The notes: generated by a model from the sequence alone, not told the origin. 64,000 bases of DNA from a virus (IMGVR_UViG_2687453424_000001); one strand, 5' to 3'. Counted from the stretch's first letter, positions 16,976 to 48,289 are shown. Translations and numbers: made by a program.

Positions 16976-17950
16976 ACACTCCCCAGACCCACAAATACCC
17001 CCCAAGTGACCCCCATCGAGCCACATCTGCCTGCCAAGTGACCCCCCAGAGACCCCCAGACACACAACTGCCCCCCATGTGACCCCAAATTGACTCCGCA
17101 GACCAACCACTGCGACCCAAGTGACCCTGAAGTGACCCCCCAGACCCACAACTATCTCCAAAGTGACCCCCAAGGGACCACCCATACCTACAACTGCCCC
17201 CAAATGACCACCAAGCAACCACCTAGACCCCCAACTGTCCCCAAATTGACCCCCACGTGACCCCCATCGAGCCACAGCTGTCCCCCAAGTGACCCCAAAT
17301 TGACTCCCCAGACCCACAACTGCCTCACAAGTGACCCCAAGTGACCACCCAGTCCCACAACTGTCCCCCAAGTGACCCCAAATTGACTCCCCAGACCCAC
17401 AACTGCCCCACAAGTTACCCCAAGTAAGCACCCAGACCCACAAGTGCCCTGCATGTGACCCTCCAGACCCACAAATGCCCCCCCAAGTGACTCCAAATTG
17501 ACTCCATAGACCAAAAACTGCCTCTCAAGTGACCCCCCAGTGACTTCCAGAACCACAACTGCCCCCAAGTGTCCCTAAAGATATCCCCATAGAGCCAAAA
17601 ACTGCCCCCCAAGTGACCCCAAATTGACTCCCCAGACCCACATCTCCCGCCAAGTGACCACCCAGGCAAACAACTGCCCCCCCAAGTGACTCCCCAGACT
17701 CAAAACTGCCTCCCAAGTGACACCCTAGACCCACAACTGCCTCCTAAGTGACCCCTGAGTAAACCCGCAGATCCACAACTGTCATTCAAGTGGCCCCCAG
17801 GTGTCCACCCAGACGCACAACAAACCCAAGTGACCCCCAAGTGGCACGTCAGACCTACACCTCCACCTCCAGTGACCTCCCAGTCACCCCCAAACCCACT
17901 CCTGCCCCTCAAATGACTCCCCAGACCCACAACTGCCCCCCAGGTTGGGG
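16975..17950. repeat. tandem minisatellite, ~31-bp unit (caagtgaccccccagacccacaactgccccc) with frequent 11-bp insert (caaattgactc) giving 42-bp units
   Basis: More than 20 degenerate tandem units read directly; same satellite recurs at 63840-64000. Confidence 0.85.
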
Positions 17951-26728: not shown

Positions 26729-26924
26729 GGCAGTGCAAGTGTAAGCAGTGGTCAAATGGGAAAGGACTTTTAGTGGCTCTGGACTAAGCTAGAAAGAGCT
26801 GAGAACTTCCAACTGTATAAATACTCTTCCCATTTTCAGTCATCCGTAGAATACTTTATACGCCAAAGGAAAAATGTCAGCAGTGTTCTACTGGTAAATA
26901 AATAACACAGGCAAAATGATTTTT

Positions 26925-27480
26925 GATGAGAAAATGAACATGAGCCGGCTGTGCAGTCGCTTGGGGTATTGTGTGCAGTTCTGGTGTCCTCAACATAAAA
27001 AGGACATGGAACTGTTGGAGCAAGTCCAGAGGAGGGCCACAAGGATGATCAGGGGACTGGAGCACCTCCCATATGAAGACAGGCTGAGGAAGTTGGGGCT
27101 GTTCAGCCTGGAGAAGAGAAGGCTGCGTGGAGACCTCAGAGCAGCCTTCCAGTATCTGAAGGGGGCCTTAAGTATGCTGGAGAGGGGCTCTTCACTAGGG
27201 ACTGTAGTGATAGGACAAGGGGTAACATGCTCAAACATAAACAGGGGAAGTTTATATTGGATCTAAGGAAGAAGTTCTTGACTGTAAGGGTGGTGAGGCA
27301 CTGGAAGAGGTTGCCCAGGGAAGCTGTGAATGCTCCATTCCTGGCGGTGTTCAAGGCCGTTTTGGATAGAGCCTTGGGTGACATGGTTTAGTGGGAGGTG
27401 TCCCTGCCCATAGCAGGGGGGTTGGAACTAGATGATCTTAAGGTCCTTTCCAACCCTAACTATTCTATGATTCTACAATT
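26925..27480 (+). mobile_element. CR1 LINE 3' fragment (ORF2 C-terminus and 3' end)
   Basis: Plus-strand translation ..[56 protein letters not shown]..; ends with ..ggttggaactagatgatcttaaggtcctttccaaccctaactattctatgattc. Confidence 0.85.
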
Positions 27481-27539
27481 CTAAGGCCATGCCGAGCCTC
27501 TCTTGTGCACCTCAGACTCATCTGAGTCATAAGTACAAG

Positions 27540-28083
27540 TAGTGAACTTTACAATCAAGTTGGATTTTATCTGATATCCCTTGTGATTATCAGAGCTGGA
27601 CAAAGCACTGCTTCAGAGCAAACCTGACTCCCATCCAACCTGGCCTTGAACACTGCCAAGGATGGGGCAGCCACAGCTTCTCTGGGCACTCAGTGCCTGC
27701 ACCTCAGCACCCTCACAGGGAAGTACTTTGTCTTAATATCCAAGATAAATCTTCCTTTTTTCAGCTTAAAGCCATTCCCACTTGTCCTCTCAGTGCACAG
27801 CCTTTTAAAATGCCCCTCTCCAGACTTCCTGTAGGCCCTGTCTAGGTATGAGCAGCTTGCTAAGATGTCTCCTTGGAGCCTTCTCTTCTTCAGGCTTAAA
27901 AACTCCAGCTCTCACAGCTGTCATCATTGGAGATGCACTCCATCCCTTAGCGAATCTCTGTGACTCTTCATAAGCCCATCGTTATAGGACCATGAAACAA
28001 CAGAGGTTGGAAGGGAACCCACAAGGTCTCGAGTCCAACCAATTGGGAACAGGATCAGAGCAGAGTGGCTCAGGGCTTGAAAC
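27540..28083 (-). mobile_element. CR1-like 3' fragments (two pieces, second is a 3'-terminus motif at ~27990-28083)
   Basis: ..catccaacctggccttgaacactgccaaggatggggcagccacagcttctctgggcac..cctcacagggaag.. and ..ggttggaagggaacccacaaggtctcgagtccaacc..gtggctcagggc.. Confidence 0.6.
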
Positions 28084-28084
28084 A

Positions 28085-28294
28085 GTCTGAGTTGGAAATC
28101 TGATGAAAGATCGATTGGCAATCCGGGCAATCATCACGGTAAAAAAACAGAACTTTATCAGAATGATTAGCGAGCGTCACGACCGGTCGCTGTTTTTCCA
28201 CGTGATTCACGTATTGATGACTAGCAAAACCACTAACAGCTAAAACCACCACGATTACCGCTAGGACTTTGCTAACCCGTTTAATTAAGGTCAC
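28085..28294 (-). CDS. membrane-anchored thioredoxin-like (CxxC) protein, 3'-truncated at the bacterial/host junction; GTG start
   Basis: MTLIKRVSKVLAVIVVVLAVSGF (TM anchor) ...VLFFYRDDCPDCQSIF (CPDC active-site motif); start overlaps the upstream gene by 14 nt; ORF ends inside CR1-like host sequence. Confidence 0.6.
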
Positions 28295-28898
28295 TGGCTT
28301 TAAAGCTACTACCTAAATTTTGTACCGCGGTGATTCGATTCGTGGTGGTATCGAAGGTCACCTGGTAAAGCACCGTCGCCTTTTGCCAGTCGTTATCGCC
28401 ACTCTTGCTTTGGTAACTAACAACCGCCAAGCCTTTCATGTTTCGCCCCTGCTTACTTTGTGTATACATATTCAGTTGGTTTAACTTGGCTGAAACACTA
28501 TTGCTATCGCCATAAGTCCCTTTATTGGAAAAGTATTGCTGATATAACTTGTCGGAAATCAAGTTTTTAACGCCATCTTTACGCTGACCGTAGGTCTTGG
28601 GCTTAAAGTTATTCATGACATCAAAGAACTTGGTGACCACCGTATTAAAGCTAAGTTCAGCCGGACTTTTGTCTTTATTATTTTGGTAGGTCTTATAACT
28701 GTCAATTTGGGTGCTCAATAACTGCTTTTGTTGGTTGGTTTTAGTCAATTGCTGACTAACTTGTCGCTTCTGTTGTTGTAAGCGCGTGATCTGCTGATGC
28801 GCCTGTTTAACTTGGCTATGTTGATAGGCATTCGCCCCTAATGACAGAACTAAGATCAAGCTACCAATCACAACACTTAAAACCATGCTACGCTTCAT
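28281..28898 (-). CDS. VirB8-like T4SS membrane protein (PrgL/TraM-like topology: N-terminal TM, coiled coil, globular domain)
   Basis: 205-aa ORF MKRSMVLSVVIGSLILVLSLGANA..; Q/K-rich coiled-coil segment; RBS aaggaggg ~7 nt upstream of ATG; family call from topology and operon context only. Confidence 0.5.
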   Translation of the reverse strand: MKRSMVLSVVIGSLILVLSLGANAYQHSQVKQAHQQITRLQQQKRQVSQQLTKTNQQKQLLSTQIDSYKTYQNNKDKSPAELSFNTVVTKFFDVMNNFKPKTYGQRKDGVKNLISDKLYQQYFSNKGTYGDSNSVSAKLNQLNMYTQSKQGRNMKGLAVVSYQSKSGDNDWQKATVLYQVTFDTTTNRITAVQNLGSSFKASDLN

Positions 28899-28912
28899 TT
28901 GTTTGTCCCTCC
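28899..28912 (-). promoter_or_regulatory. Shine-Dalgarno site (AAGGAGGG) for the VirB8-like ORF
   Basis: Minus-strand taaggagggacaaacaaATG; the upstream gene's TAA stop abuts the RBS. Confidence 0.7.
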
Positions 28913-29767
28913 TTACTTCTTGATTGGCCGGGCTAACGTCACATCACCACCACTTAGCAAGCTATAAAAAGCGGTGCCAAAGGTGCTTTCGTTAACCTTG
29001 TCGCCTGTCCCACCTTGCTCAATAATCTTGGTGGCTTTGCCTTGCCATTTGCCTAACAGAATGGCCGTATGGCCGTTGTTTCCCGCGCCGGCGCCTTGAT
29101 TGACAATCACAATATCGCCGGCTTTCGCGTCATTTTCACTGATTTGTTTAAGATATTGATGACTGCCTTTGGCGTCACTGGCCATCGTGCCGGTAAACCA
29201 GCCCATGTTGGCGGGTACCTTGTAACCAGCTTTATTCAGGGCTAACCAGACAAAGCCGGAACAATCCGTGCCACCAGTTTTATTAGGATTTTTTAAATCG
29301 CTACCTAGATCAGGACTGGGGTGCGTTTGCACATAGTAGAAGTCCCCCTTCATGCTTTCCGCGTTTTTGACGATACTACCGCCGGAATAACTCGGGTCAC
29401 TATCACAACCTAGCTCGGTCAGATCGCCGGAACTCGCGTTGTCTAAGGTATTGCCCGCTACTGGATCACTGGCACCAAACACGGAATACCAGTGATCGGC
29501 ATAACCGTATCTTTGGCTTAAATACCATTGCTCCGGGTTTTTGCTCATGCCCTCAAAATCCATCAACCAGTCTTTGGTCGCTTTGTGCACGTCCGTGTAT
29601 TTGAATATCTTCTTATTTGACGCATAGTAACTACTGTTCAATTCTTGGTCGAGATAATCTAATTGCACCCCGAGATTTGTGGCTGGTTTGTTTTCTTTGT
29701 GAGCTAAGTCTTCCAGTTTATCTTTTCGGCCACCTAACCACTGGGCTAATCCCGTGGCACCGGAACT
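28913..29767 (-). CDS. CHAP-domain peptidoglycan hydrolase (T4SS-associated cell-wall hydrolase), C-terminal 285 aa; 5' part in gap
   Basis: ..GGTDCSGFVWLALNKAGY.. (catalytic Cys) and ..NGHTAILLG.. (His) CHAP signature; stop TAA at 28913-28915. Confidence 0.8.
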   Translation of the reverse strand, partial: SSGATGLAQWLGGRKDKLEDLAHKENKPATNLGVQLDYLDQELNSSYYASNKKIFKYTDVHKATKDWLMDFEGMSKNPEQWYLSQRYGYADHWYSVFGASDPVAGNTLDNASSGDLTELGCDSDPSYSGGSIVKNAESMKGDFYYVQTHPSPDLGSDLKNPNKTGGTDCSGFVWLALNKAGYKVPANMGWFTGTMASDAKGSHQYLKQISENDAKAGDIVIVNQGAGAGNNGHTAILLGKWQGKATKIIEQGGTGDKVNESTFGTAFYSLLSGGDVTLARPIKK

Positions 29768-32700
29768 NNNNNNNNNNNNNNNNNNNNNNNNNNNNNNNNN
29801 NNNNNNNNNNNNNNNNNNNNNNNNNNNNNNNNNNNNNNNNNNNNNNNNNNNNNNNNNNNNNNNNNNNNNNNNNNNNNNNNNNNNNNNNNNNNNNNNNNNN
29901 NNNNNNNNNNNNNNNNNNNNNNNNNNNNNNNNNNNNNNNNNNNNNNNNNNNNNNNNNNNNNNNNNNNNNNNNNNNNNNNNNNNNNNNNNNNNNNNNNNNN
30001 NNNNNNNNNNNNNNNNNNNNNNNNNNNNNNNNNNNNNNNNNNNNNNNNNNNNNNNNNNNNNNNNNNNNNNNNNNNNNNNNNNNNNNNNNNNNNNNNNNNN
30101 NNNNNNNNNNNNNNNNNNNNNNNNNNNNNNNNNNNNNNNNNNNNNNNNNNNNNNNNNNNNNNNNNNNNNNNNNNNNNNNNNNNNNNNNNNNNNNNNNNNN
30201 NNNNNNNNNNNNNNNNNNNNNNNNNNNNNNNNNNNNNNNNNNNNNNNNNNNNNNNNNNNNNNNNNNNNNNNNNNNNNNNNNNNNNNNNNNNNNNNNNNNN
30301 NNNNNNNNNNNNNNNNNNNNNNNNNNNNNNNNNNNNNNNNNNNNNNNNNNNNNNNNNNNNNNNNNNNNNNNNNNNNNNNNNNNNNNNNNNNNNNNNNNNN
30401 NNNNNNNNNNNNNNNNNNNNNNNNNNNNNNNNNNNNNNNNNNNNNNNNNNNNNNNNNNNNNNNNNNNNNNNNNNNNNNNNNNNNNNNNNNNNNNNNNNNN
30501 NNNNNNNNNNNNNNNNNNNNNNNNNNNNNNNNNNNNNNNNNNNNNNNNNNNNNNNNNNNNNNNNNNNNNNNNNNNNNNNNNNNNNNNNNNNNNNNNNNNN
30601 NNNNNNNNNNNNNNNNNNNNNNNNNNNNNNNNNNNNNNNNNNNNNNNNNNNNNNNNNNNNNNNNNNNNNNNNNNNNNNNNNNNNNNNNNNNNNNNNNNNN
30701 NNNNNNNNNNNNNNNNNNNNNNNNNNNNNNNNNNNNNNNNNNNNNNNNNNNNNNNNNNNNNNNNNNNNNNNNNNNNNNNNNNNNNNNNNNNNNNNNNNNN
30801 NNNNNNNNNNNNNNNNNNNNNNNNNNNNNNNNNNNNNNNNNNNNNNNNNNNNNNNNNNNNNNNNNNNNNNNNNNNNNNNNNNNNNNNNNNNNNNNNNNNN
30901 NNNNNNNNNNNNNNNNNNNNNNNNNNNNNNNNNNNNNNNNNNNNNNNNNNNNNNNNNNNNNNNNNNNNNNNNNNNNNNNNNNNNNNNNNNNNNNNNNNNN
31001 NNNNNNNNNNNNNNNNNNNNNNNNNNNNNNNNNNNNNNNNNNNNNNNNNNNNNNNNNNNNNNNNNNNNNNNNNNNNNNNNNNNNNNNNNNNNNNNNNNNN
31101 NNNNNNNNNNNNNNNNNNNNNNNNNNNNNNNNNNNNNNNNNNNNNNNNNNNNNNNNNNNNNNNNNNNNNNNNNNNNNNNNNNNNNNNNNNNNNNNNNNNN
31201 NNNNNNNNNNNNNNNNNNNNNNNNNNNNNNNNNNNNNNNNNNNNNNNNNNNNNNNNNNNNNNNNNNNNNNNNNNNNNNNNNNNNNNNNNNNNNNNNNNNN
31301 NNNNNNNNNNNNNNNNNNNNNNNNNNNNNNNNNNNNNNNNNNNNNNNNNNNNNNNNNNNNNNNNNNNNNNNNNNNNNNNNNNNNNNNNNNNNNNNNNNNN
31401 NNNNNNNNNNNNNNNNNNNNNNNNNNNNNNNNNNNNNNNNNNNNNNNNNNNNNNNNNNNNNNNNNNNNNNNNNNNNNNNNNNNNNNNNNNNNNNNNNNNN
31501 NNNNNNNNNNNNNNNNNNNNNNNNNNNNNNNNNNNNNNNNNNNNNNNNNNNNNNNNNNNNNNNNNNNNNNNNNNNNNNNNNNNNNNNNNNNNNNNNNNNN
31601 NNNNNNNNNNNNNNNNNNNNNNNNNNNNNNNNNNNNNNNNNNNNNNNNNNNNNNNNNNNNNNNNNNNNNNNNNNNNNNNNNNNNNNNNNNNNNNNNNNNN
31701 NNNNNNNNNNNNNNNNNNNNNNNNNNNNNNNNNNNNNNNNNNNNNNNNNNNNNNNNNNNNNNNNNNNNNNNNNNNNNNNNNNNNNNNNNNNNNNNNNNNN
31801 NNNNNNNNNNNNNNNNNNNNNNNNNNNNNNNNNNNNNNNNNNNNNNNNNNNNNNNNNNNNNNNNNNNNNNNNNNNNNNNNNNNNNNNNNNNNNNNNNNNN
31901 NNNNNNNNNNNNNNNNNNNNNNNNNNNNNNNNNNNNNNNNNNNNNNNNNNNNNNNNNNNNNNNNNNNNNNNNNNNNNNNNNNNNNNNNNNNNNNNNNNNN
32001 NNNNNNNNNNNNNNNNNNNNNNNNNNNNNNNNNNNNNNNNNNNNNNNNNNNNNNNNNNNNNNNNNNNNNNNNNNNNNNNNNNNNNNNNNNNNNNNNNNNN
32101 NNNNNNNNNNNNNNNNNNNNNNNNNNNNNNNNNNNNNNNNNNNNNNNNNNNNNNNNNNNNNNNNNNNNNNNNNNNNNNNNNNNNNNNNNNNNNNNNNNNN
32201 NNNNNNNNNNNNNNNNNNNNNNNNNNNNNNNNNNNNNNNNNNNNNNNNNNNNNNNNNNNNNNNNNNNNNNNNNNNNNNNNNNNNNNNNNNNNNNNNNNNN
32301 NNNNNNNNNNNNNNNNNNNNNNNNNNNNNNNNNNNNNNNNNNNNNNNNNNNNNNNNNNNNNNNNNNNNNNNNNNNNNNNNNNNNNNNNNNNNNNNNNNNN
32401 NNNNNNNNNNNNNNNNNNNNNNNNNNNNNNNNNNNNNNNNNNNNNNNNNNNNNNNNNNNNNNNNNNNNNNNNNNNNNNNNNNNNNNNNNNNNNNNNNNNN
32501 NNNNNNNNNNNNNNNNNNNNNNNNNNNNNNNNNNNNNNNNNNNNNNNNNNNNNNNNNNNNNNNNNNNNNNNNNNNNNNNNNNNNNNNNNNNNNNNNNNNN
32601 NNNNNNNNNNNNNNNNNNNNNNNNNNNNNNNNNNNNNNNNNNNNNNNNNNNNNNNNNNNNNNNNNNNNNNNNNNNNNNNNNNNNNNNNNNNNNNNNNNNN

Positions 32701-35083
32701 NNNNNNNNNNNNNNNNNNNNNNNNNNNNNNNNNNNNNNNNNNNNNNNNNNNNNNNNNNNNNNNNNNNNNNNNNNNNNNNNNNNNNNNNNNNNNNNNNNNN
32801 NNNNNNNNNNNNNNNNNNNNNNNNNNNNNNNNNNNNNNNNNNNNNNNNNNNNNNNNNNNNNNNNNNNNNNNNNNNNNNNNNNNNNNNNNNNNNNNNNNNN
32901 NNNNNNNNNNNNNNNNNNNNNNNNNNNNNNNNNNNNNNNNNNNNNNNNNNNNNNNNNNNNNNNNNNNNNNNNNNNNNNNNNNNNNNNNNNNNNNNNNNNN
33001 NNNNNNNNNNNNNNNNNNNNNNNNNNNNNNNNNNNNNNNNNNNNNNNNNNNNNNNNNNNNNNNNNNNNNNNNNNNNNNNNNNNNNNNNNNNNNNNNNNNN
33101 NNNNNNNNNNNNNNNNNNNNNNNNNNNNNNNNNNNNNNNNNNNNNNNNNNNNNNNNNNNNNNNNNNNNNNNNNNNNNNNNNNNNNNNNNNNNNNNNNNNN
33201 NNNNNNNNNNNNNNNNNNNNNNNNNNNNNNNNNNNNNNNNNNNNNNNNNNNNNNNNNNNNNNNNNNNNNNNNNNNNNNNNNNNNNNNNNNNNNNNNNNNN
33301 NNNNNNNNNNNNNNNNNNNNNNNNNNNNNNNNNNNNNNNNNNNNNNNNNNNNNNNNNNNNNNNNNNNNNNNNNNNNNNNNNNNNNNNNNNNNNNNNNNNN
33401 NNNNNNNNNNNNNNNNNNNNNNNNNNNNNNNNNNNNNNNNNNNNNNNNNNNNNNNNNNNNNNNNNNNNNNNNNNNNNNNNNNNNNNNNNNNNNNNNNNNN
33501 NNNNNNNNNNNNNNNNNNNNNNNNNNNNNNNNNNNNNNNNNNNNNNNNNNNNNNNNNNNNNNNNNNNNNNNNNNNNNNNNNNNNNNNNNNNNNNNNNNNN
33601 NNNNNNNNNNNNNNNNNNNNNNNNNNNNNNNNNNNNNNNNNNNNNNNNNNNNNNNNNNNNNNNNNNNNNNNNNNNNNNNNNNNNNNNNNNNNNNNNNNNN
33701 NNNNNNNNNNNNNNNNNNNNNNNNNNNNNNNNNNNNNNNNNNNNNNNNNNNNNNNNNNNNNNNNNNNNNNNNNNNNNNNNNNNNNNNNNNNNNNNNNNNN
33801 NNNNNNNNNNNNNNNNNNNNNNNNNNNNNNNNNNNNNNNNNNNNNNNNNNNNNNNNNNNNNNNNNNNNNNNNNNNNNNNNNNNNNNNNNNNNNNNNNNNN
33901 NNNNNNNNNNNNNNNNNNNNNNNNNNNNNNNNNNNNNNNNNNNNNNNNNNNNNNNNNNNNNNNNNNNNNNNNNNNNNNNNNNNNNNNNNNNNNNNNNNNN
34001 NNNNNNNNNNNNNNNNNNNNNNNNNNNNNNNNNNNNNNNNNNNNNNNNNNNNNNNNNNNNNNNNNNNNNNNNNNNNNNNNNNNNNNNNNNNNNNNNNNNN
34101 NNNNNNNNNNNNNNNNNNNNNNNNNNNNNNNNNNNNNNNNNNNNNNNNNNNNNNNNNNNNNNNNNNNNNNNNNNNNNNNNNNNNNNNNNNNNNNNNNNNN
34201 NNNNNNNNNNNNNNNNNNNNNNNNNNNNNNNNNNNNNNNNNNNNNNNNNNNNNNNNNNNNNNNNNNNNNNNNNNNNNNNNNNNNNNNNNNNNNNNNNNNN
34301 NNNNNNNNNNNNNNNNNNNNNNNNNNNNNNNNNNNNNNNNNNNNNNNNNNNNNNNNNNNNNNNNNNNNNNNNNNNNNNNNNNNNNNNNNNNNNNNNNNNN
34401 NNNNNNNNNNNNNNNNNNNNNNNNNNNNNNNNNNNNNNNNNNNNNNNNNNNNNNNNNNNNNNNNNNNNNNNNNNNNNNNNNNNNNNNNNNNNNNNNNNNN
34501 NNNNNNNNNNNNNNNNNNNNNNNNNNNNNNNNNNNNNNNNNNNNNNNNNNNNNNNNNNNNNNNNNNNNNNNNNNNNNNNNNNNNNNNNNNNNNNNNNNNN
34601 NNNNNNNNNNNNNNNNNNNNNNNNNNNNNNNNNNNNNNNNNNNNNNNNNNNNNNNNNNNNNNNNNNNNNNNNNNNNNNNNNNNNNNNNNNNNNNNNNNNN
34701 NNNNNNNNNNNNNNNNNNNNNNNNNNNNNNNNNNNNNNNNNNNNNNNNNNNNNNNNNNNNNNNNNNNNNNNNNNNNNNNNNNNNNNNNNNNNNNNNNNNN
34801 NNNNNNNNNNNNNNNNNNNNNNNNNNNNNNNNNNNNNNNNNNNNNNNNNNNNNNNNNNNNNNNNNNNNNNNNNNNNNNNNNNNNNNNNNNNNNNNNNNNN
34901 NNNNNNNNNNNNNNNNNNNNNNNNNNNNNNNNNNNNNNNNNNNNNNNNNNNNNNNNNNNNNNNNNNNNNNNNNNNNNNNNNNNNNNNNNNNNNNNNNNNN
35001 NNNNNNNNNNNNNNNNNNNNNNNNNNNNNNNNNNNNNNNNNNNNNNNNNNNNNNNNNNNNNNNNNNNNNNNNNNNNNNNNNNN
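29768..35083. other. assembly gap (N run) inside the bacterial block
   Basis: continuous n. Confidence 1.
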
Positions 35084-35311
35084 CTTTAGTGACTTGACCT
35101 TATCTGGCAAGGTATAAGTTAAAACAACCTTCTGGTCTTGCTCAACAACATTAACTAACTGCAAGAAATTGGGATCAGCTTGCTTTAATTCGTTTAGCTC
35201 ACTTAATTGGTCGTAGCGAAATTGATTGTGATTGAGTTCGAGGATTAGCTTGTTCCCTTGTCGTTTGAACGTGCCAACCTCAATATTCAATAGCTGGTTT
35301 GCTTTACTCAT
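35084..35311 (-). CDS. hypothetical protein, N-terminal 76 aa; may be the N-terminus of the CHAP hydrolase or a separate gene
   Basis: ATG at 35311-35309 overlaps the VirB4-like stop (35304-35306) by 8 nt; strong RBS gaaggaggg upstream; MSKANQLLNIEVGTFKRQGNKLILELNHNQ.. Confidence 0.5.
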
Positions 35312-37168
35312 TTAAAGTCCCTCCTTCTTCTTCGGTGGTGGTCAAGGCGTCAATTTCACTCGGTGTCAGGATCACACGCTTTTGATAATCCGGTTGTCCG
35401 GCGGTCTCACGGTTGTATTTTTCTTGGTAAGCTTCTGGGTCGATTAACCGCAATTCTTCTTCGGTTAGCTCCACCCGCATAAAAGCGCGTTGGCTACCAT
35501 AGATCATCAGGGCTTCACCTTGTCTACGGCGTTCTAGTAACTTCTTTTCCTTATCCGAGAACGTCATTCTTAACTTAGTAATGACATCATCAACACCTTT
35601 ACCATCAAGGCCAAAGAATACCTTGGTATAGGAGTTCCCAATAATGGCTTCACCAATGTTCTGCCCAGTATCTGTCGTTCCTTCAATCACATCTTGAATT
35701 TGTTGCGTTCCGGCAATCGCCCCGGCATTGTACTTTCTAAAGCGCTTATAGGCTTGATGGAAAAAGGTAGCGGCCGCTTTATGCAAGGTCAGAAAATGAA
35801 ATTCGTCAACAAACAATTTCTTGCGGCTATGCCGATCTTTCGTGATTTCGTCCCACAAATATTGAAAAGTATTCAGGTAGGCTGCTGATTGGACTTCCTG
35901 TTCACTTTGCAGCGGTTTTAAATCAAAGGAAATGATCTTGCCCTTTAAGTTGACGTTGGTGTGTCCGTCAAATAGGCTGTTAGAACCATGGGTATAACTG
36001 CCTAAGATGTAGTAGAAGTCTTTAACCCGACTGAATTTGTCAGCGTCCTTATCAGCTAGTTTTTCCAACTCGTCATAGACATTGGATAAGGTCGGCCACT
36101 GATCGTCTTTAATCTCTTTTAAGCGGCTATATTTCAAAACGCCACTGTTGACATAAGCCTGTTTAACAACATCATCAAGGATTGCCAATTCAACTTGGGT
36201 AATCCCGGTTTTGAGGACTTCAAAGAATCCCTTTAGTCGTTGAATTTTATCTTTGACTAGTAAATCAAGGTTTGTGACCGCTTCATCAGCGCTTAGGATT
36301 TCTTCGGAAAAGATTTGTAGCGGGTTAATTTTGTACTTCGCATTGGAAGTTAAATGCAAGACTGCCCCACCCAAGGCTTCAACAATCTTGGTATATTCAT
36401 TTTCTGGATCAATAATGTAGAGTTGATAGTCTTGAATGGCATAGCGTAGGATTTTTTGGATCATATAGGTGGTCTTGCCGACCCCACTGGTACCAATAAC
36501 CACCATGTTTTGGTTCAACGTTTTGTTGCGATCCAACATATCCACGGCAATTAAGCTGTTGGTGTCTTTGTTAACCCCTTCAATATCGCTTCTAGGCTTT
36601 AAGTCCAAAATCTCGGCGTCATCAAAAGGAAACATGCTGCTGGCAACTTCGGTATTACTTTCCTTATACGTATAATCGCCTAATAGATTTTCGTTGATTG
36701 GCATAGTAGACCAAAAACTTTGAAAAGTTGCTTTAACGGGCACTAAGGGCTTCATTTGTAGCTTAATCAGTGTATTTTTAACGTTGTCAGTTAAATCGTC
36801 TAGTTCCGCTAAACTGTTAGCCCGCAGATAAACCAGCATATGTTGGTACACAAATGTGGTAGAATTATCGAGGTATTTATCTAGTTGCATATTGGCCGAA
36901 TCAATATAATTTTGCAGAATTTTCTTTTTATACGGGTCGAACGTATTTAGCTTCTGCGCTTCCTTATTTTGGATCGTCTTTTTGTAATAGGTAATCATTG
37001 AATTGTTACTGGCGCTGTCGATATATTGCACAATATCGATAACGCCTTTTTTGCGCTTTAATTCTGATAGCCAGTTGCCGTGAACTCGCTTGGGATAGTC
37101 AGCAATCGCTAACACCCGGATAAAGTTCTCCCCCGACTGCACGTAGGTGGGGTACTGTTCCCAACTGC
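35304..37168 (-). CDS. VirB4-like conjugative T4SS ATPase (TraE/PrgJ/TcpF family), C-terminal ~620 aa; 5' end truncated at the bacterial/host junction
   Basis: Walker A NMVVIGTSGVGKTTYMIQKI; Walker B KKLFVDEFHFL; C-terminal AGAIAGTQQIQDV; the first ~66 codons of ORF-track ORF 35304-37364 are read-through into GC-rich host DNA. Confidence 0.85.
35312..35325 (-). promoter_or_regulatory. Shine-Dalgarno site (GAAGGAGGG) inside the 3' end of the VirB4-like gene
   Basis: Minus-strand gaagaaggagggacttta-ATG. Confidence 0.65.
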
Positions 37169-38159
37169 AGGTAGTCTCATGTCCCTTTGATGGCTGGAAC
37201 CCCAAGAGGTGTAGCATGGAGACAAGAAAGATGAGGAGGGTGGATGCCCCCTGCATGAAGGGGAAACTTGGATTTCTGGAGGTCCTCTGTGTGACAGGGA
37301 ACAGGTGGGGTTGGCTTTTGTGACTGAGGATCAGAGGAGTGGATAAGAGGGACATTGTGCTCACAGTTACAAACTACTTGCTCAGGGAGGGGAAACAGAA
37401 AAGGTCTTTTGTCAGCACCTGAGGAAGCCTCCAGGCTAATGAGCAGGTACCTTGCAGGTAATTGCCCTGGTGGTCCCTGGCCATGCAAAGCAACAGGGTG
37501 CAACAATGTGGAGGGTCTTGGCACAACCGGTTAACACAGGTGCAGGGCGGGCCAACAAGGGTGATGCTCCCCTGGAAAAGCTGCTCAGGATGTGATCATC
37601 AGTGTCAGCCTTGGCTGTCATGAGCATGCAATAGTGGGGACTCAGATGCTAAAGGGCATGAGGAAGGCCAGCAGCAGAGAACAGACTCTGGACTTACTTG
37701 GGGACAATTCCAGGAGTTTCCATGGGAAGCGGCTCTGATGGTGAAGGAGCATGAGCAAGTCTGCTAACGATCCCTGAGCCTGGAATACCTGGAGGGCTTC
37801 CAAGGTCCACCAGGGCTTTTGCCACCTTTCTGAATGCCGGTCAGGCTCCTGAGGGCTTTAGCACAGTTGCAGAGCACCAGCGCATTCTGGAATGGCCGGT
37901 GTTATTCCTCAGCCTTGCCAGAGCCTGCTGAGGCCTCTGCCTCCATCTAGAATGCTTGGGGAGATTCTGCAGGATTGGTGCAGACTGCCAGGGCCCTGCC
38001 ATGTTCTGCAATGTTGGGTGTCCTTCCAAGCGTGCTGGTGCAAGCACTTCCCTGGGCATTGCTGGAACCCTCCAGTTTCCCAGCAGGGCCTTCGCCGCCT
38101 TCCAGTAGCCTCGATGTGCTGCCGCGGTGCTGTGGTTTAAGTCCAGTCAGTAATTCAGA

Positions 38160-38290
38160 ACCACGTAGTCGCTCGCTCACTCTCCCCCCTTCCTCCCCCC
38201 CACTCCCAGAGGGATGGGAAGGAGAATCGAAAAAATATAACTCGCACAGGTTGAGATAAGAACAGTCAAGTAACTAAGGAATAGCACAAA
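38160..38290 (-). repeat. LTR-like repeat, partial copy, interrupted by CR1
   Basis: ..gtggtttaagtccagtcag..ctcccccttcctccccc..cccagagggatgggaaggagaatcgaaa..ggttgagataagaacag..taactaagg.. matches 63290-63440. Confidence 0.6.
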
Positions 38291-41200
38291 CCACAGCCGC
38301 TACCACCAGTAATAATAGTAGAATCATAGAATCGTAGAATCATAGAATAGTTAGGATGGGAAAGGACCTTAAGACCNNNNNNNNNNNNNNNNNNNNNNNN
38401 NNNNNNNNNNNNNNNNNNNNNNNNNNNNNNNNNNNNNNNNNNNNNNNNNNNNNNNNNNNNNNNNNNNNNNNNNNNNNNNNNNNNNNNNNNNNNNNNNNNN
38501 NNNNNNNNNNNNNNNNNNNNNNNNNNNNNNNNNNNNNNNNNNNNNNNNNNNNNNNNNNNNNNNNNNNNNNNNNNNNNNNNNNNNNNNNNNNNNNNNNNNN
38601 NNNNNNNNNNNNNNNNNNNNNNNNNNNNNNNNNNNNNNNNNNNNNNNNNNNNNNNNNNNNNNNNNNNNNNNNNNNNNNNNNNNNNNNNNNNNNNNNNNNN
38701 NNNNNNNNNNNNNNNNNNNNNNNNNNNNNNNNNNNNNNNNNNNNNNNNNNNNNNNNNNNNNNNNNNNNNNNNNNNNNNNNNNNNNNNNNNNNNNNNNNNN
38801 NNNNNNNNNNNNNNNNNNNNNNNNNNNNNNNNNNNNNNNNNNNNNNNNNNNNNNNNNNNNNNNNNNNNNNNNNNNNNNNNNNNNNNNNNNNNNNNNNNNN
38901 NNNNNNNNNNNNNNNNNNNNNNNNNNNNNNNNNNNNNNNNNNNNNNNNNNNNNNNNNNNNNNNNNNNNNNNNNNNNNNNNNNNNNNNNNNNNNNNNNNNN
39001 NNNNNNNNNNNNNNNNNNNNNNNNNNNNNNNNNNNNNNNNNNNNNNNNNNNNNNNNNNNNNNNNNNNNNNNNNNNNNNNNNNNNNNNNNNNNNNNNNNNN
39101 NNNNNNNNNNNNNNNNNNNNNNNNNNNNNNNNNNNNNNNNNNNNNNNNNNNNNNNNNNNNNNNNNNNNNNNNNNNNNNNNNNNNNNNNNNNNNNNNNNNN
39201 NNNNNNNNNNNNNNNNNNNNNNNNNNNNNNNNNNNNNNNNNNNNNNNNNNNNNNNNNNNNNNNNNNNNNNNNNNNNNNNNNNNNNNNNNNNNNNNNNNNN
39301 NNNNNNNNNNNNNNNNNNNNNNNNNNNNNNNNNNNNNNNNNNNNNNNNNNNNNNNNNNNNNNNNNNNNNNNNNNNNNNNNNNNNNNNNNNNNNNNNNNNN
39401 NNNNNNNNNNNNNNNNNNNNNNNNNNNNNNNNNNNNNNNNNNNNNNNNNNNNNNNNNNNNNNNNNNNNNNNNNNNNNNNNNNNNNNNNNNNNNNNNNNNN
39501 NNNNNNNNNNNNNNNNNNNNNNNNNNNNNNNNNNNNNNNNNNNNNNNNNNNNNNNNNNNNNNNNNNNNNNNNNNNNNNNNNNNNNNNNNNNNNNNNNNNN
39601 NNNNNNNNNNNNNNNNNNNNNNNNNNNNNNNNNNNNNNNNNNNNNNNNNNNNNNNNNNNNNNNNNNNNNNNNNNNNNNNNNNNNNNNNNNNNNNNNNNNN
39701 NNNNNNNNNNNNNNNNNNNNNNNNNNNNNNNNNNNNNNNNNNNNNNNNNNNNNNNNNNNNNNNNNNNNNNNNNNNNNNNNNNNNNNNNNNNNNNNNNNNN
39801 NNNNNNNNNNNNNNNNNNNNNNNNNNNNNNNNNNNNNNNNNNNNNNNNNNNNNNNNNNNNNNNNNNNNNNNNNNNNNNNNNNNNNNNNNNNNNNNNNNNN
39901 NNNNNNNNNNNNNNNNNNNNNNNNNNNNNNNNNNNNNNNNNNNNNNNNNNNNNNNNNNNNNNNNNNNNNNNNNNNNNNNNNNNNNNNNNNNNNNNNNNNN
40001 NNNNGTCCTCGTGGCCCTCCTCTGGACTTGTTCCAACAGTTCCATGTCCTTTTTATGTTGAGGACACCAGAACTGCACACAATACCCAAGTGAGGTCTCA
40101 CGAGAGCAGAGTAGTGGGGCAGGATCACCTCCTTCGACCTGCTGCTCACGCTCATTTTGATGCAGCCCAGGATACGGTTGCTTTCTGGGCTGCGAGCACA
40201 CACTGCAGCTGGCTCATGTTCATTTTTCATCGACCAACACCCCCAAGTCTTTCTCCACAGGGCTGCTCTGGATCTCTGCTATCCCCAACCTGTAGCTGTG
40301 CCTGGGATTGCTCCGACCCAGGTGTAGGACCTTGCACTTGGCATGGTTAAACTTCATCAGGTTGGCATCAGCCCACCTCACAAGCGTGTCGAGGTCCCTC
40401 TGCATGGCATCCCTTCCCTCCGGCGTATCAACCGAACCACACAGCTTGGTGTCATCGGCAAACTTGCTGAGGGCGCACTCAATCCCACTGTCCATGTCAG
40501 CGACAAAGATGTTGAACAAGACCGATCCCAACACTGATCCCTGAGGAACACCACTTGTTACCGGTCTCCAGCTGGACATCGAGCCATTGACCACAACTCC
40601 TTGCGTGCGGCCATCCAGCCAGATCTTTATCCACCGAGTGGTCCACCCATCAAATTGATGTCTCTCCAATTAGAGACAAGGATGTCATGTCGGACAGTGT
40701 CGAACGCTTTGCACAAGTCCAGGTAGATGACCTCAGCTGCTCTACCCCTATCCATCAGTTCCATAGCCCCATCATAGAAGGCCACCAAATTGATCAGGCA
40801 GGATTTCCCCTTTGTGAAGCCATGCTGGCTGTCACCAACCACCTCCTTGTTTTTCATGTGCCTTAGCATGCCTTGCAGGAGAATCTGCTCCAAGAGTTTG
40901 CCAGGCACAGAGGTGAGACTGACTGCTCTGTAATTCCCCTGATCATCCATTTTCCCCTTCTTGAAAACAGGGGCTATATTTCCCTTTTCCCAGTCATCGG
41001 GAGCTTCACCTGACTGCCATGATCTTTCAAATATGATGGACTGTGTAAACTTCATTTGCCAGCTCCTTCAGGACCCGTAGATGGATTTCATTAGGTCCCA
41101 TGGACATGTGCACGTTCAGGTTCTTAAGATGGTCTTGAACCAGATCCTGTCTTACAGTGGGCCCAAGGTCTTCATTCTCACAGTCCCTGCTTCTGCCTTC

Positions 41201-45706: not shown

Positions 45707-47749
45707 GTGGTGACCCCGACGTGATAGCGATGGATGTGAGCCACGTGGTACAGGTACTGGAGGCCCTCGTGCAGCAAGCTGGGTTGCCGAAGGCGATAAA
45801 CTTGGAGCCAGCGGGCCACTGCATCCAATGGTTGCGAGGCCGGGGGGCGGTGGAGGCCCCTGTGGACGTATTAGATACCTCCCGATGGGGACGGATCTGC
45901 CAAGAGCTTTTGGAAGCAGTCTTGGCTGGGGAAAAGAAAGCAGGAGATCTAGGGGAGACGTGGGGTGCCATCAAGAAAGGTGTCTCCGGGAGAGGAGTTG
46001 CAGGAGCAGCTGCGGGACACGGAGGCGCTGCGGGTGGAGGAGCCGCGGGTGCAAGCGCGGGAGCTGTGGAGGAAAGTGCCCCGGGAGGTGCGGCCGGAGC
46101 CCCCGAGCCGCGCGGCCGAGCGGGCAGTGCCGGGGCTGCAGCATGACTGCCAGAAACCGCGGCAAAGGCAACAGCAAAAAACCGGGAAGCGGAGTCTTGT
46201 GAGCCCTGGTAACACTCCCCTTTGTGCGACAGGGCAGGGGACAGGGGGGTTCCCCACAACGAGCGACAGCAACCCTCAAAGCCTACCCTGGGGGAATCCT
46301 CCCTACTAACGACATTGTCTTTATCCTTGGCTACCAGGCTGGAGTGTTTAGTTTGGTTTTGATTTTCTAGAAAAAAAAAAAAAGGTAACCCTTATAGCCT
46401 TTTGAACACGGTGTGTGAGTGCCGTGGTGGACTGTGGACTTGAAACCCCATATACAACTCATTTGATAGTCTCTCTGTGATCCACATGTACTAGAAGTTG
46501 GCAAATATATATCCATGTATATCCATGTTTCTGTTAGCCCTTGGAGAATTTTTATGGATATTGCTGACCACTTCTTCCAATGTAGGCTGGCCACCTGCAT
46601 CGGAATGAGTGTGCATTTTGGTCAGTGTAAAAGCCCAAGGCTCGTGCGATGTGGGGGGGGCAGAGCCTCTGCGGGGACGCCTGCTAAAGTTGAGCCTGCC
46701 GCCTTACACTGCAGTGATGCTGCTTGGAGCTGATTTTTGATTGTCTTCACAGGGTCCTTATGCTACGTTCTGTATGAGGGACCATATAGTGGGAATAATG
46801 ATTGTCTAGGTTTTGTGTTTCAAATATTGTAATTGTATGGAGTGTGCTTGTGGGATCCCATGCGTGTGTGCGTGTGTGTGTGCTGAGGGCGGACAGTGCT
46901 CTATGTATTTTTTGTTGTTGGGTTTGTGTAAAAGTTTTAATGGGTAGCAGATTAACATTTTGGACAAGAAAGGGTTAATGCAAACTGCCGTTGCTGGCAG
47001 GTATTTACTGCTGCTGCTAAGCAGGCAGGCAGCTGTAGCTTCACATTTCTTTCCCATCAGAATGCCTTTGAATCACTTTAACGGGCCTCCTTCTCAGGAG
47101 CTGATAGCGTGGGAGAGGGGGTATGTTTGTGTTCTCCTACCTACAGGTCCATGGCAGCTGCCTGCAAAGTTTGCAAAGCCTTGCCATGAGCTGGACAAAC
47201 AAGTGGAGGAACCCGATGCCTCAGCTACAGAAGCTGACAGTGAATACCCCGAGCAGAATGAGATAGAGGAGAAGAAAAATAAATGATTACAGGACATCAC
47301 TTGAGGGCAACTGAAAAGTAACAACTTGAATATGTGTGCTTGTAACGTAGCTATTATTAGAGGCTGTGATTTTGTGTATAAAACCACTTGTATTTACTAG
47401 CCAGTTGCTAAAGAGAAACTATACCTTGTATTGTGTGCATTTGTTACTTGTAAAAGATGTTAGAGCATGCAAATTTGCAGCAGCTGCTAGAAAATGCTAA
47501 GACAAAAGCTAGAAAGATTCTAATATGATGGTAGTGTTATAAACCAGGTAATGGAACAAATTAAGAGGGTGGAAGAACTCCACTGGTAAGAAAATTCTTT
47601 GGCTAGTTTCTTGCTGCCATCAGCATTTTCAACATGCTGTTGTAACCTGTAATAGTTACTCTGGTAATGTAAATCTGTGTATGCTTTGCCACAGTAGCAA
47701 CTTGTTACTGGATGAAGCAGGTGAAACTCTGCATTGACAACGAGGTACA

Positions 47750-48190: not shown

Positions 48191-48289
48191 GCTACAAAGC
48201 GTGTTTGGCTTGTATAAAAAGAAAAAGGCGGAGATGTGGATGACTTTCTGGCAAAGAACAGCCATGTACCCAGATCAGCAAGTGCCTAC

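What the first reader, a model, noticed from the sequence alone, without database searches (positions are those of the whole stretch)
28281..37168. Bacterial ORFs are undecayed and keep native operon signals
Within the sequenced bacterial parts there are no internal stops or frameshifts. There is an 8-nt stop/start overlap (VirB4-like stop at 35304-35306, next ATG at 35311-35309), a 14-nt overlap between the VirB8-like and thioredoxin-like genes, and canonical AAGGAGG ribosome-binding sites. The neighbouring host elements (OR gene, ERV, CR1) are all visibly decayed. This argues the bacterial DNA is either not resident in the bird genome or arrived extremely recently.
Basis: partly seen in the sequence, partly recalled or inferred. 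Interest (0 to 1): 0.6.

Follow-up and report, generated by a model that had tools for sequence, protein, structure and literature searches.

The report
Lactobacillus plasmid fragment mis-assembled beside bird DNA
The intact bacterial genes are a piece of an ordinary present-day Lactobacillus-family conjugative plasmid, stitched next to bird repeats in a public record that is itself labelled E. coli, so this is almost certainly a mixed-sample assembly artefact and not gene transfer into a bird.

Summary
On the minus strand, 28096-29767 and 35084-37167 carry five collinear genes of a Gram-positive conjugation (tra/trs) operon. There are 1251 codons with no stop or frameshift, the 8-nt and 14-nt gene overlaps are present, and there are two AAGGAGG sites. 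These signals also occur in the related plasmids.

The DNA is contemporary plasmid DNA:
- The right part is 99.90% identical to a JGI metagenome contig.
- The left part is a 97.5% mosaic of known Lactobacillaceae plasmids.
- Only 2 of 3756 bases are absent from about 60-70 relatives.
- dN/dS against 8 plasmids is 0.04-0.065.
- CpG o/e is 1.00, against 0.14-0.26 in the bird DNA.

The junctions are blunt, cut through genes and abut bird repeats. The internal N-run is 5316 nt where all 50 relatives have about 1494 nt of ordinary unique sequence.

GenBank files these proteins as Escherichia coli (CUQ97495-97, record LN877770.1, 5.03 Mb), yet no block of the window matches any complete E. coli genome. 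The window is therefore a patch of foreign DNA from at least two sources inside a mis-assembled record.

Interest is low. A real integration into bird cells is not formally excluded (about 3%).

The parts
28096..28294 (-). 5' part (66 of 122 codons, GTG start at 28294) of a thioredoxin-family gene of the tra operon, cut off at the left junction
   Evidence: Collinear with the annotated 'thioredoxin family protein' in plasmids. One amino-acid difference from pLBN-3. No Pfam hit on the fragment.
28281..28898 (-). Complete 205-aa TraH-like / VirB8-fold transfer protein (GenBank CUQ97497.1, BN1843_28280). Overlaps the thioredoxin gene start by 14 nt.
   Evidence: ORF. No Pfam hit. AlphaFold model pLDDT 76. 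Top Foldseek PDB hit is pIP501 TraH 5aiw (TMt 0.76, E 2e-5), followed by VirB8 homologues. The exact protein is found only in LN877770.1.
28908..28914 (-). AAGGAGG Shine-Dalgarno site 9 nt upstream of the 205-aa gene's ATG, overlapping the hydrolase stop codon (TAAGGAGG)
   Evidence: Kept, with small variations, in the related plasmids.
28913..29767 (-). C-terminal 284 codons plus stop of the 385-aa cell-wall hydrolase (TrsG/TraG-type). The 5' part is lost in the N-run.
   Evidence: Pfam Phage_lysozyme2 5e-19, NLPC_P60 2e-9, Amidase_5, CHAP. Annotated 'phage tail tip lysozyme' in plasmids. GenBank CUQ97496.1 covers 28913-29548.
29768..35083 (.). N-run of 5316 nt where all relatives have 1490-1503 nt (the rest of the hydrolase and 472-aa genes)
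   Evidence: In the closest relative the missing stretch is unique, 44% GC, with no repeats and no homopolymer longer than 5.
35084..35311 (-). First 76 codons of the 472-aa transfer protein (TrsF-type; annotated 'conjugal transfer protein' or 'EssB/YukC'). The ATG at 35311 overlaps the VirB4 stop by 8 nt.
   Evidence: Weak NCBIfam T7_EssB hit, 2.5e-4, below cut-off.
35320..35326 (-). AAGGAGG Shine-Dalgarno site 8 nt upstream of the ATG at 35311, inside the 3' end of the VirB4-like gene
35304..37167 (-). VirB4-like conjugation ATPase (TrsE/DUF87), codons about 52-672 plus stop. The first 155 nt are missing at the right junction. GenBank's 'protein TrsE' CUQ97495.1 (35304-37355) runs on into bird DNA.
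   Evidence: Pfam P-loop_TraG 1e-16, DUF87, AAA_10, CagE_TrbE_VirB. NCBIfam VirB4-type models, below equivalog cut-offs. 99.90% nucleotide identity to the JGI contig Ga0214925_100860..
28095..28096 (.). Left junction, bird repeat | plasmid (..GAGTTGG|AAATCTG..), inside the thioredoxin gene. Blunt, no microhomology.
   Evidence: No adaptor or linker remnant. The window-private substitution at 28166 lies 70 nt away.
37167..37168 (.). Right junction, plasmid | bird (..CCCAACTG|CAGGTAG..), inside the VirB4-like gene. Blunt, no microhomology.
   Evidence: The window-private substitution at 37082 lies 85 nt away.
26729..28095 (.). Left flank: bird DNA with two inverted CR1-type LINE 3' ends (27053-27367 and 27633-27946). 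CpG o/e 0.14.
   Evidence: for composition. for repeat copies elsewhere in the window, including next to the RVT_1 fragment at 40006-41067.
37168..38376 (.). Right flank: bird DNA, CpG o/e 0.23. 37168-37750 reads like a decayed CR1 endonuclease region. 38128-38319 is a repeat present three more times in the window.
   Evidence: The CR1-endonuclease reading is my own recognition of motifs and is not supported by Pfam.

Best explanation
The genes are intact because they were never in a bird genome. They come from a conjugative plasmid of a living lactic-acid bacterium (Lactobacillaceae) whose DNA was co-sequenced with bird DNA and E. coli DNA.

Two low-coverage plasmid contigs, 1672 and 2084 nt, lie 1.5 kb apart on the plasmid. 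They were linked to each other, and their outer ends were joined without overlap to bird-repeat contigs. That join happened during assembly, gap closing or scaffolding, or less likely through a chimeric library molecule. The whole patch ended up inside a 5.03-Mb scaffold deposited as Escherichia coli (LN877770.1, GCA_001405275.1).

The fragment encodes part of a pIP501/pSK41-type Gram-positive type IV secretion operon: VirB4 ATPase, TrsF-like protein, cell-wall hydrolase, VirB8-fold TraH-like protein, thioredoxin. It has no promoter, relaxase, oriT or coupling protein, so it does nothing here.

Shown: the identity of the DNA, its lack of private divergence, its composition, the anatomy of the junctions, the gap mismatch and the record's label. 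Inferred: that the joins are artefactual, and at which step they arose.
For: 1. The DNA belongs to a plasmid backbone found in 172-201 PLSDB plasmids, nearly all typed conjugative and mostly Lactobacillaceae, and in about 50 Lactobacillaceae species representatives.

2. The right part is 2082/2084 identical and gapless to metagenome contig Ga0214925_100860. The left part is 97.5% identical to pLBN-3 and to a Logan contig, and 97.5-100% locally to different plasmids, which is a recombinant mosaic.

3. Only 2 of 3756 positions (28166, 37082) carry a base seen in none of about 60-70 relatives. In the earlier comparison with 14 plasmids, several real plasmids had more private sites than the window.

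4. dN/dS is 0.04-0.065 against each of 8 plasmids. No multiple alignment puts a gap in the window sequence and there are no stops.

5. CpG o/e is 1.00 and GC 0.431, the same as the plasmids. Bird DNA has CpG o/e 0.26 and GC 0.516, and the flanks 0.14 and 0.23. Tetranucleotide correlation is 0.93 with a 90%-identical plasmid and -0.02 with the bird DNA.

6. Both junctions cut genes, are blunt, show no microhomology, duplication or adaptor, and abut repeats. The two flanks are different elements, so they are not two halves of one interrupted site.

7. The 5316-N gap replaces 1490-1503 nt in all 50 relatives. That stretch is unique, ordinary sequence, so failure to assemble it points to low read depth on the plasmid.

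8. Both private substitutions lie within 85 nt of a junction, that is, at the ends of the plasmid contigs. By my own estimate the chance of this is about 0.003 (about 200 of 3756 nt lie that close to a junction, squared). It fits error-prone contig ends.

9. GenBank files the three annotated proteins as Escherichia coli on a 5,027,063-nt record, but no block of the window matches any of 20,395 complete E. coli records. The patch is foreign to the labelled organism and comes from at least two sources.
Against: - Both ends of one plasmid segment are joined to bird DNA inside contiguous sequence, with no N. This needs two separate mis-joins, or one physical chimeric molecule. De Bruijn assemblers rarely join sequences that share no k-mer, and no 16-mer is shared.
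- The two plasmid contigs are in the correct relative order and orientation, so some linking information was real. A real plasmid link should then have given a gap of about 1.5 kb, not 5.3 kb. This is unexplained.
- I could not see reads, depth, the rest of the record or the rest of the plasmid.
- The exact 205-aa protein was found in no Logan run assembly. This fits low depth, but it could also mean that the runs are not indexed.
Confidence: 0.92

Rival explanations
1. Genuine, very recent integration of a 5.25-kb plasmid fragment into the nuclear DNA of bird cells, germline or somatic (for example gut epithelium in a host-plus-microbiome sample), by end-joining of a broken plasmid fragment.
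For: - Bird DNA flanks the plasmid segment on both sides within uninterrupted sequence.
- Blunt junctions without homology are what non-homologous end-joining produces.
- Zero decay is compatible with an insertion of negligible age. Two private sites in 3756 nt set only an upper bound of about 0.05%.
Against: - There is no positive sign of residence. CpG is undepleted and composition is unameliorated. Even the few differences are of the plasmid-population type.
- The flanks are unrelated repeats in a stretch that is 58% N.
- The gap is 3.8 kb too long.
- A unique 1.5-kb stretch failed to assemble.
- The record is an E. coli-labelled mixed assembly in which the bird DNA is itself misplaced.
- From general knowledge, the prior for bacterium-to-vertebrate germline transfer is very low.
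Confidence: 0.03
2. The chimera is physical but was made in vitro. A plasmid fragment of about 5 kb was ligated to bird fragments during library construction (for example intermolecular ligation in a mate-pair circularisation step), and the junction reads were then assembled faithfully.
For: - Blunt, homology-free junctions at both ends of one segment.
- The segment length of 5250 nt (1672 + 1494 + 2084) is similar to the 4.2-5.4 kb N-runs in the window, which suggests a library with inserts of about 5 kb.
Against: - No linker or adaptor remnant at or near the junctions.
- Contigs reaching 1.7-2.1 kb into the plasmid need many independent plasmid reads, so the plasmid path should normally have out-competed a rare chimeric read.
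- The insert size is only inferred.
- This is a variant of the artefact explanation, not an alternative to it.
Confidence: 0.12
3. The fragment really belongs to the labelled organism, as part of a plasmid or integrated element of the E. coli strain.
For: GenBank annotates the three CDS as E. coli proteins, CUQ97495-97.
Against: - Neither plasmid part matches any of 20,395 complete E. coli chromosome or plasmid records. The queries covered 28096-29600 and 35084-37167.
- The megablast hits in PLSDB are to Lactobacillales, mainly Lactobacillaceae, and the close relatives among species representatives are Lactobacillaceae.
- The flanks are bird DNA, not E. coli DNA.
- The operon is of the Gram-positive pIP501 type.
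Confidence: 0.005
4. An older horizontally acquired operon kept intact by selection in the bird (domesticated bacterial genes).
For: Intact reading frames and a low dN/dS.
Against: - The low dN/dS is measured against plasmids, and the variants are shared with them. There is no bird-specific branch: 2 private sites in 3756 nt.
- Two of the five genes are truncated by the junctions.
- Overlapping genes translated from Shine-Dalgarno sites cannot be expressed as such in a vertebrate.
- There is no promoter, intron or polyadenylation context, and CpG is undepleted.
Confidence: 0.002

Closest known systems
tra/trs region of conjugative Lactobacillaceae plasmids, e.g. Levilactobacillus brevis pLBN-3 (NZ_CP050544.1), Lactiplantibacillus plantarum BK-021 plasmid unnamed2 (NZ_CP044235.1) and JGI metagenome contig Ga0214925_100860
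   Same: Same genes in the same order, with the same overlaps and equivalent ribosome-binding sites. Nucleotide identity is 97.5% (left part) and 95.0% (right part) in PLSDB, and 99.90% to the metagenome contig. No gaps in the window sequence.
   Different: Only a 5.25-kb span is present, with 3.76 kb sequenced, and it is truncated inside two genes. The relaxase, coupling protein, TrbL and topoisomerase genes that flank it in every plasmid are absent. No single known plasmid matches both halves, so it is a mosaic.
pIP501 (Inc18) and pSK41/pGO1 Gram-positive type IV secretion operons: TraE/TrsE VirB4, TraF/TrsF, TraG/TrsG hydrolase, TraH VirB8-like
   Same: Same module order. The VirB4-type ATPase domains match. 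The hydrolase has lysozyme plus NlpC/P60-CHAP domains. The 205-aa protein has the TraH/VirB8 NTF2-like fold, with 5aiw as the best PDB match. TraH as a VirB8-like protein is described in PMC4840375; I took this from its title and abstract only.
   Different: Sequence identity to TraH is only about 11%. A thioredoxin-family gene follows the TraH-like gene here. Membership is at the level of architecture and fold, not close sequence.
Foreign (contaminant) DNA and chimeric joins in public genome assemblies, which are often mistaken for horizontal gene transfer
   Same: Near-identity to a free-living organism's replicon, unameliorated composition, location in a gap-rich repeat-rich stretch, and an organism label that does not fit the sequence. 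The problem is reviewed in PMC8862208 and PMC7003083 (titles and abstracts seen).
   Different: Here three sources are mixed: an E. coli label, bird DNA and a Lactobacillaceae plasmid. The contaminant is also joined to another contaminant within contiguous sequence, instead of sitting on its own contig.
Genuine bacterium-to-animal insertions, e.g. Wolbachia DNA in insect and nematode genomes (from general knowledge)
   Same: Bacterial DNA flanked by host DNA. Young insertions can still have open reading frames.
   Different: Accepted cases rest on host-level read depth, junction PCR, presence in several individuals, and a donor that lives inside germline cells. None of these is available or plausible here.

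Membership tests
Lactobacillaceae conjugative-plasmid tra operon (pIP501/pSK41-type Gram-positive T4SS) | VirB4-family ATPase with P-loop domain | tested here: met
   Pfam P-loop_TraG 1e-16, DUF87, AAA_10 and CagE_TrbE_VirB, all above the gathering scores. NCBIfam VirB4-type models reach 4e-71 but stay below equivalog cut-offs. 97% identity to a 2718-member cluster of VirB4-family/DUF87 proteins.
Lactobacillaceae conjugative-plasmid tra operon (pIP501/pSK41-type Gram-positive T4SS) | Conserved gene order VirB4, 472-aa protein, cell-wall hydrolase, VirB8-fold protein, thioredoxin, with overlapping or abutting genes | tested here: met
   Collinear with the annotated plasmids and with a constant spacing of 1490-1503 nt in 50 relatives. 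The overlaps and ribosome-binding sites are shared, the latter with small variations.
Lactobacillaceae conjugative-plasmid tra operon (pIP501/pSK41-type Gram-positive T4SS) | VirB8-like (NTF2-fold) component | tested here: met
   Model pLDDT 76. Foldseek top hits are TraH 5aiw, CagV 6iqt and other VirB8 structures. There is no sequence-level hit in Pfam or the PDB.
Lactobacillaceae conjugative-plasmid tra operon (pIP501/pSK41-type Gram-positive T4SS) | Complete transfer system (relaxase/oriT, coupling protein, VirB6/TrbL) on the same molecule | tested here: not met
   The fragment ends inside the thioredoxin gene and the VirB4 gene. No other part of the window matches plasmids. It is a fragment of a member, not a functional system.
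Assembly contaminant / chimeric mis-join | Near-identity to a replicon of a free-living organism, with no lineage-specific divergence | tested here: met
   99.90% identity for the right part. 2 private sites in 3756 nt. dN/dS 0.04-0.065.
Assembly contaminant / chimeric mis-join | Composition of the donor, not of the surrounding DNA | tested here: met
   CpG o/e 1.00 against 0.26. GC 0.431 against 0.516. Tetranucleotide r 0.93 against -0.02.
Assembly contaminant / chimeric mis-join | Structural inconsistencies of the assembly around it | tested here: met
   The window is 58% N. The gap is 5316 nt against 1494 nt. Unique sequence is left unassembled. The flanks are unrelated repeats. The record is labelled E. 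coli but the window has no E. coli DNA.
Assembly contaminant / chimeric mis-join | Read depth unlike the neighbouring DNA, and no independent reads across the junctions | not testable with these tools
   No access to reads. The only indirect hints are the unassembled 1.5 kb and the private substitutions clustered at the contig ends.
Genuine horizontal transfer into an animal genome | Signs of residence: amelioration, CpG decay, private neutral substitutions or decay, or eukaryotic expression signals | tested here: not met
Genuine horizontal transfer into an animal genome | Flanks that form one continuous host site, and presence in other individuals or assemblies | not testable with these tools
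   No bird genome collection is available. Within the window the two flanks are different repeat elements in opposite orientation, which does not suggest a simple insertion.

The most novel reading that the evidence does not exclude
A lactic-acid bacterium living in a bird's gut delivered plasmid DNA into host cells, and a 5.25-kb fragment was end-joined into bird chromosomal DNA so recently that it has not diverged at all. The mixed host-plus-microbiome sample then captured a real trans-kingdom integration event, somatic or germline.
Probability: 0.03. Interest if true: 0.85.

Novelty: not a real feature. Interest (0 to 1): 0.08.

Why it matters
As biology it does not matter. The genes are an ordinary, already well-sampled plasmid module, and their intactness simply reflects a living bacterial source.

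It matters as a data-quality warning. A chromosome-sized GenBank record labelled Escherichia coli (LN877770.1) contains at least 64 kb with no E. coli DNA. That stretch is made of bird repeats and a Lactobacillaceae plasmid fragment, and three of its CDS circulate in nr as 'E. coli' proteins. One of them, CUQ97495.1 'protein TrsE', is a bird-bacterium chimeric ORF. Such entries can seed false claims of horizontal transfer, in birds or in E. coli, and can mislead taxonomic classifiers.

If the 3% reading were true, it would be a rare direct observation of bacterium-to-vertebrate DNA integration.

Tried and rejected
- Other plasmid or bacterial DNA in the window: none found. No E. coli DNA either.
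- Adaptor, linker or transposase-end remnants near the junctions: none. The CTGCAG (PstI) site formed at the right junction, and the 6-nt inverted match between the left flank end (AGTTGG) and the plasmid end (CCAACT), were judged coincidental. The left junction has no such site.
- A closer relative of the left part: neither the GTDB species representatives nor the contigs carrying the four most similar 205-aa proteins do better than 97.5%.
- Other genes of the same plasmid elsewhere in the same record or assembly: I looked up exact copies of nine neighbouring plasmid proteins. None was on a contig of the size of LN877770.1. This is uninformative, because the look-up needs exact identity.
- Walking out of the window by exact look-up of eight bird-block ORFs: none is in the collection, so I could not see what flanks the patch.
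- Finding the record in the literature or among RefSeq E. coli genomes by accession or locus-tag prefix: nothing.
- Kakapo gut metagenome idea (the bird's OR14 fragment is closest to parrot genes and kakapo guts are rich in Escherichia): dropped, because that study deposited its data under PRJNA381379 at NCBI.
- Pfam support for my reading of the right flank as a CR1 endonuclease region: none.
- Sequence-only search of the 205-aa protein against the PDB gave only coiled-coil noise. The fold search was needed.
- Rfam: no hit in the window.
Full report
**What the window is.** The 64-kb window is 58% N. Nine N-runs of 1.6-5.4 kb separate nine sequenced blocks of 1-5.4 kb. Two blocks, 26729-29767 and 35084-38376, are intermediate in GC and CpG content because each is half bird and half bacterial. 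The locus returned for the exact 205-aa protein, L003, is the reverse complement of window 18281-38898. The window is therefore part of GenBank LN877770.1 (assembly GCA_001405275.1), a single record of 5,027,063 nt.

**Checking the observation.** Megablast against PLSDB places bacterial homology at 28096-29767 and 35084-37167. No other part of the window matches plasmids. The minus strand carries five collinear genes, as annotated in many plasmids:
- a VirB4-like ATPase (DUF87/TrsE), of which codons about 52-672 are present
- a 472-aa transfer protein, first 76 codons present
- a 385-aa cell-wall hydrolase, last 284 codons present
- a complete 205-aa protein
- a thioredoxin-family protein, first 66 of 122 codons present

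None of the 1251 codons is a stop. Random sequence of this composition would give 77 stops. Multiple alignment to 14 plasmids puts no gap in the window sequence.

The stated signals are all there. ATG 35311-35309 and TAA 35306-35304 overlap by 8 nt. GTG 28294-28292 and TAA 28283-28281 overlap by 14 nt. AAGGAGG lies at 28908-28914 and 35320-35326. The two overlaps are kept in the commonest variants among the 55-63 relatives, and the Shine-Dalgarno sites are kept with small variations.

The bird elements I tested are visibly broken: an RVT_1 domain split over two frames, a 137-aa olfactory-receptor fragment and an integrase fragment. The only corrections are that the bacterial DNA starts at 28096, not 28281, and that about 1.5 kb of the operon is hidden in the N-run.

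**What the genes are.** Pfam gives P-loop_TraG, DUF87, AAA_10 and CagE_TrbE_VirB for the ATPase, and Phage_lysozyme2 plus NlpC/P60, Amidase_5 and CHAP for the hydrolase. NCBIfam supports a VirB4-type ATPase. The 205-aa protein has no sequence-family hit. An AlphaFold model (pLDDT 76) has a long N-terminal helix followed by an alpha/beta domain. Its best PDB match is TraH of pIP501 (5aiw, TMt 0.76), followed by many VirB8 structures. The module is the central part of a pIP501/pSK41-type Gram-positive conjugation operon. In the plasmids it is flanked by TrsD and a MobQ relaxase on one side, and by VirD4-like, TrbL and topoisomerase genes on the other. None of these is present in the window.

**How old is the DNA?** In PLSDB alone the best matches are 97.5% (left part, L. 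brevis pLBN-3) and 95.0% (right part, L. plantarum BK-021), which could look like real divergence. It is not.

First, the differences are overwhelmingly synonymous. Pooled dN/dS is 0.04-0.065 against each of eight plasmids.

Second, the sequence is a mosaic. In 200-nt windows the best identity is mostly 97.5-100%, with two lower stretches (93% and 96%), to different plasmids in turn.

Third, an exact 33-mer from the worst-matching stretch retrieved a JGI metagenome contig, Ga0214925_100860. It is 2082/2084 identical and gapless over the whole right part, but only 94.3% identical over the left part.

Fourth, against a panel of about 60-70 relatives only two window bases are seen in no other sequence: 28166 and 37082. 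The panel comprised 14 PLSDB plasmids, Lactobacillaceae species representatives, the metagenome contig and four Logan/NCBI contigs. In the earlier comparison with 14 plasmids, several genuine plasmids had more private sites than the window.

Fifth, CpG o/e is 1.00 and GC 0.431, exactly like the plasmids. The bird DNA has CpG o/e 0.26, and the immediate flanks 0.14 and 0.23. Tetranucleotide usage correlates 0.93 with a 90%-identical plasmid and -0.02 with the bird DNA.

There is thus no detectable history outside a bacterium. The upper bound on private divergence is 0.05%.

**The junctions and the gap.** The left junction is ..GAGTTGG|AAATCTG.. at 28095|28096, inside the thioredoxin gene. The right junction is ..CCCAACTG|CAGGTAG.. 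at 37167|37168, 155 nt into the VirB4 gene. Both are blunt. There is no microhomology, no duplication, and no adaptor or linker remnant.

The flanks are bird repeats. Two inverted CR1-type 3' ends lie on the left, with copies elsewhere in the window. On the right there is what I read as a decayed CR1 endonuclease region, followed by another dispersed repeat. Pfam does not confirm the endonuclease reading. The flanks are not two halves of one element.

The N-run between the two plasmid parts is 5316 nt. In all 50 relatives that hold both parts, the distance is 1490-1503 nt. That stretch is unique, 44% GC and free of repeats. The likeliest reason for failing to assemble it is low read depth on the plasmid.

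The only two private substitutions, both non-synonymous, lie 70 and 85 nt from the two junctions. These positions are the ends of the plasmid contigs. By my own rough estimate, the chance that both fall within 100 nt of a junction is about 0.003. This looks like error-prone contig ends.

**The twist: the record is labelled E. coli.** An exact look-up of the proteins shows how GenBank files them:
- CUQ97497.1, 'hypothetical protein BN1843_28280 [Escherichia coli]'
- CUQ97496.1, BN1843_28270
- CUQ97495.1, 'protein TrsE [Escherichia coli]'

Each is on one contig of 5,027,063 nt. The annotated TrsE (683 aa, 35304-37355) is a chimeric ORF that runs 188 nt into bird DNA. Yet no block of the window matches any of 20,395 complete E. 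coli chromosome or plasmid records, and the record is not among those RefSeq complete genomes.

The locus-tag number (about the 2,828th gene at 3.08 Mb) implies that the rest of the record is gene-dense, so presumably it really is E. coli. This is an inference, because I could not read beyond the window.

The bird DNA is real. The receptor fragment belongs to the avian OR14 family, with best hits in parrots (Pezoporus 89%, Strigops 88%) and only 82-85% in chicken. The window is therefore a patch of DNA from at least two foreign sources, a bird and a lactic-acid bacterium, embedded in a scaffold attributed to a third organism. That is the signature of an assembly made from a mixed sample, or from cross-contaminated libraries, and then mis-scaffolded.

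**Most likely mechanism.** The following is shown: the fragment is present-day Lactobacillaceae plasmid DNA, it has no residence signature, the joins are blunt and cut genes, the gap is mis-sized, and the record mixes organisms.

The following is inferred. Two low-coverage plasmid contigs were linked to each other. Their ends were butt-joined to bird-repeat contigs during scaffolding or gap closing. Alternatively, the joins reflect a ligation chimera from a long-insert library: the plasmid span of 5250 nt is close to the 4.2-5.4 kb gap sizes in the window.

Some things remain unexplained.

**Rivals.** A genuine, essentially zero-age integration into bird cells cannot be excluded from sequence alone, because blunt junctions are also what end-joining gives. 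It has no positive support, a very low prior, and sits in a demonstrably mis-assembled context (about 3%). Ownership by the E. coli strain is refuted, by the taxonomic spread of the relatives, and by the bird flanks. Long-term domestication in the bird is refuted by the absence of any bird-specific branch and by the truncated, Shine-Dalgarno-dependent, overlapping genes.

**Verdict.** The thing itself is a known plasmid module, and its position is an artefact. Interest is low, apart from the database-hygiene point that an 'E. coli' record and three 'E. coli' proteins in nr are really bird and Lactobacillaceae sequence.

Noticed in passing
whole window; record LN877770.1 about 3,044,241-3,108,240: The source record is deposited as Escherichia coli (5,027,063 nt; proteins CUQ97495-97), but no sequenced block of this 64-kb window matches any complete E. 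coli genome. The window consists of bird DNA plus a Lactobacillaceae plasmid fragment.
   Followed up: partly
window 35304-37355 (-): GenBank's 'protein TrsE [Escherichia coli]' CUQ97495.1 (683 aa) is a chimeric ORF. Its first roughly 63 codons are read from bird DNA beyond the junction at 37167.
   Followed up: yes
window 28166 and 37082: The only two bases not seen in any of about 60-70 related plasmids are both non-synonymous and lie 70 and 85 nt from the two junctions. This suggests error-prone contig ends.
   Followed up: partly
window 5144-5554 (-): Fragment of an avian OR14-family olfactory receptor (7tm_4). The best protein hits are parrots (Pezoporus flaviventris 89%, Strigops habroptila 88%), against 82-85% for chicken, so the bird is probably not a chicken. 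The species was not identified.
   Followed up: partly
window 16999-17923: C-rich minisatellite with a 42-nt unit, about 22 copies at 66% match. It accounts for the strong negative GC skew of that block.
   Followed up: no
window 27053-27367 and 27633-27946: Two CR1-type LINE 3' ends in inverted orientation (70% identical) just left of the plasmid junction. Further copies lie at about 20.6-20.9 kb, 40.0 kb and 56.1-56.6 kb.
   Followed up: partly
window 45707-50371: This block has intermediate CpG content (o/e 0.52) and an integrase (rve) fragment at 49152-49559, so it is probably a decayed endogenous retrovirus. It has no plasmid or E. coli match.
   Followed up: partly
L091 (PPYE01644084.1 of GCA_002924505.1): A related tra region (about 94% identical to the window's plasmid parts) sits on a 12.6-kb contig of a WGS project with more than 1.6 million contigs. 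It is either a metagenome or another assembly carrying a Lactobacillaceae plasmid as a passenger.
   Followed up: no
window N-runs (all nine): Eight of the nine N-runs are 4.2-5.4 kb long, and the sequenced blocks between them are only 1-5.4 kb. At the one place where the true distance can be known (29768-35083), the run is 3.8 kb too long.
   Followed up: partly
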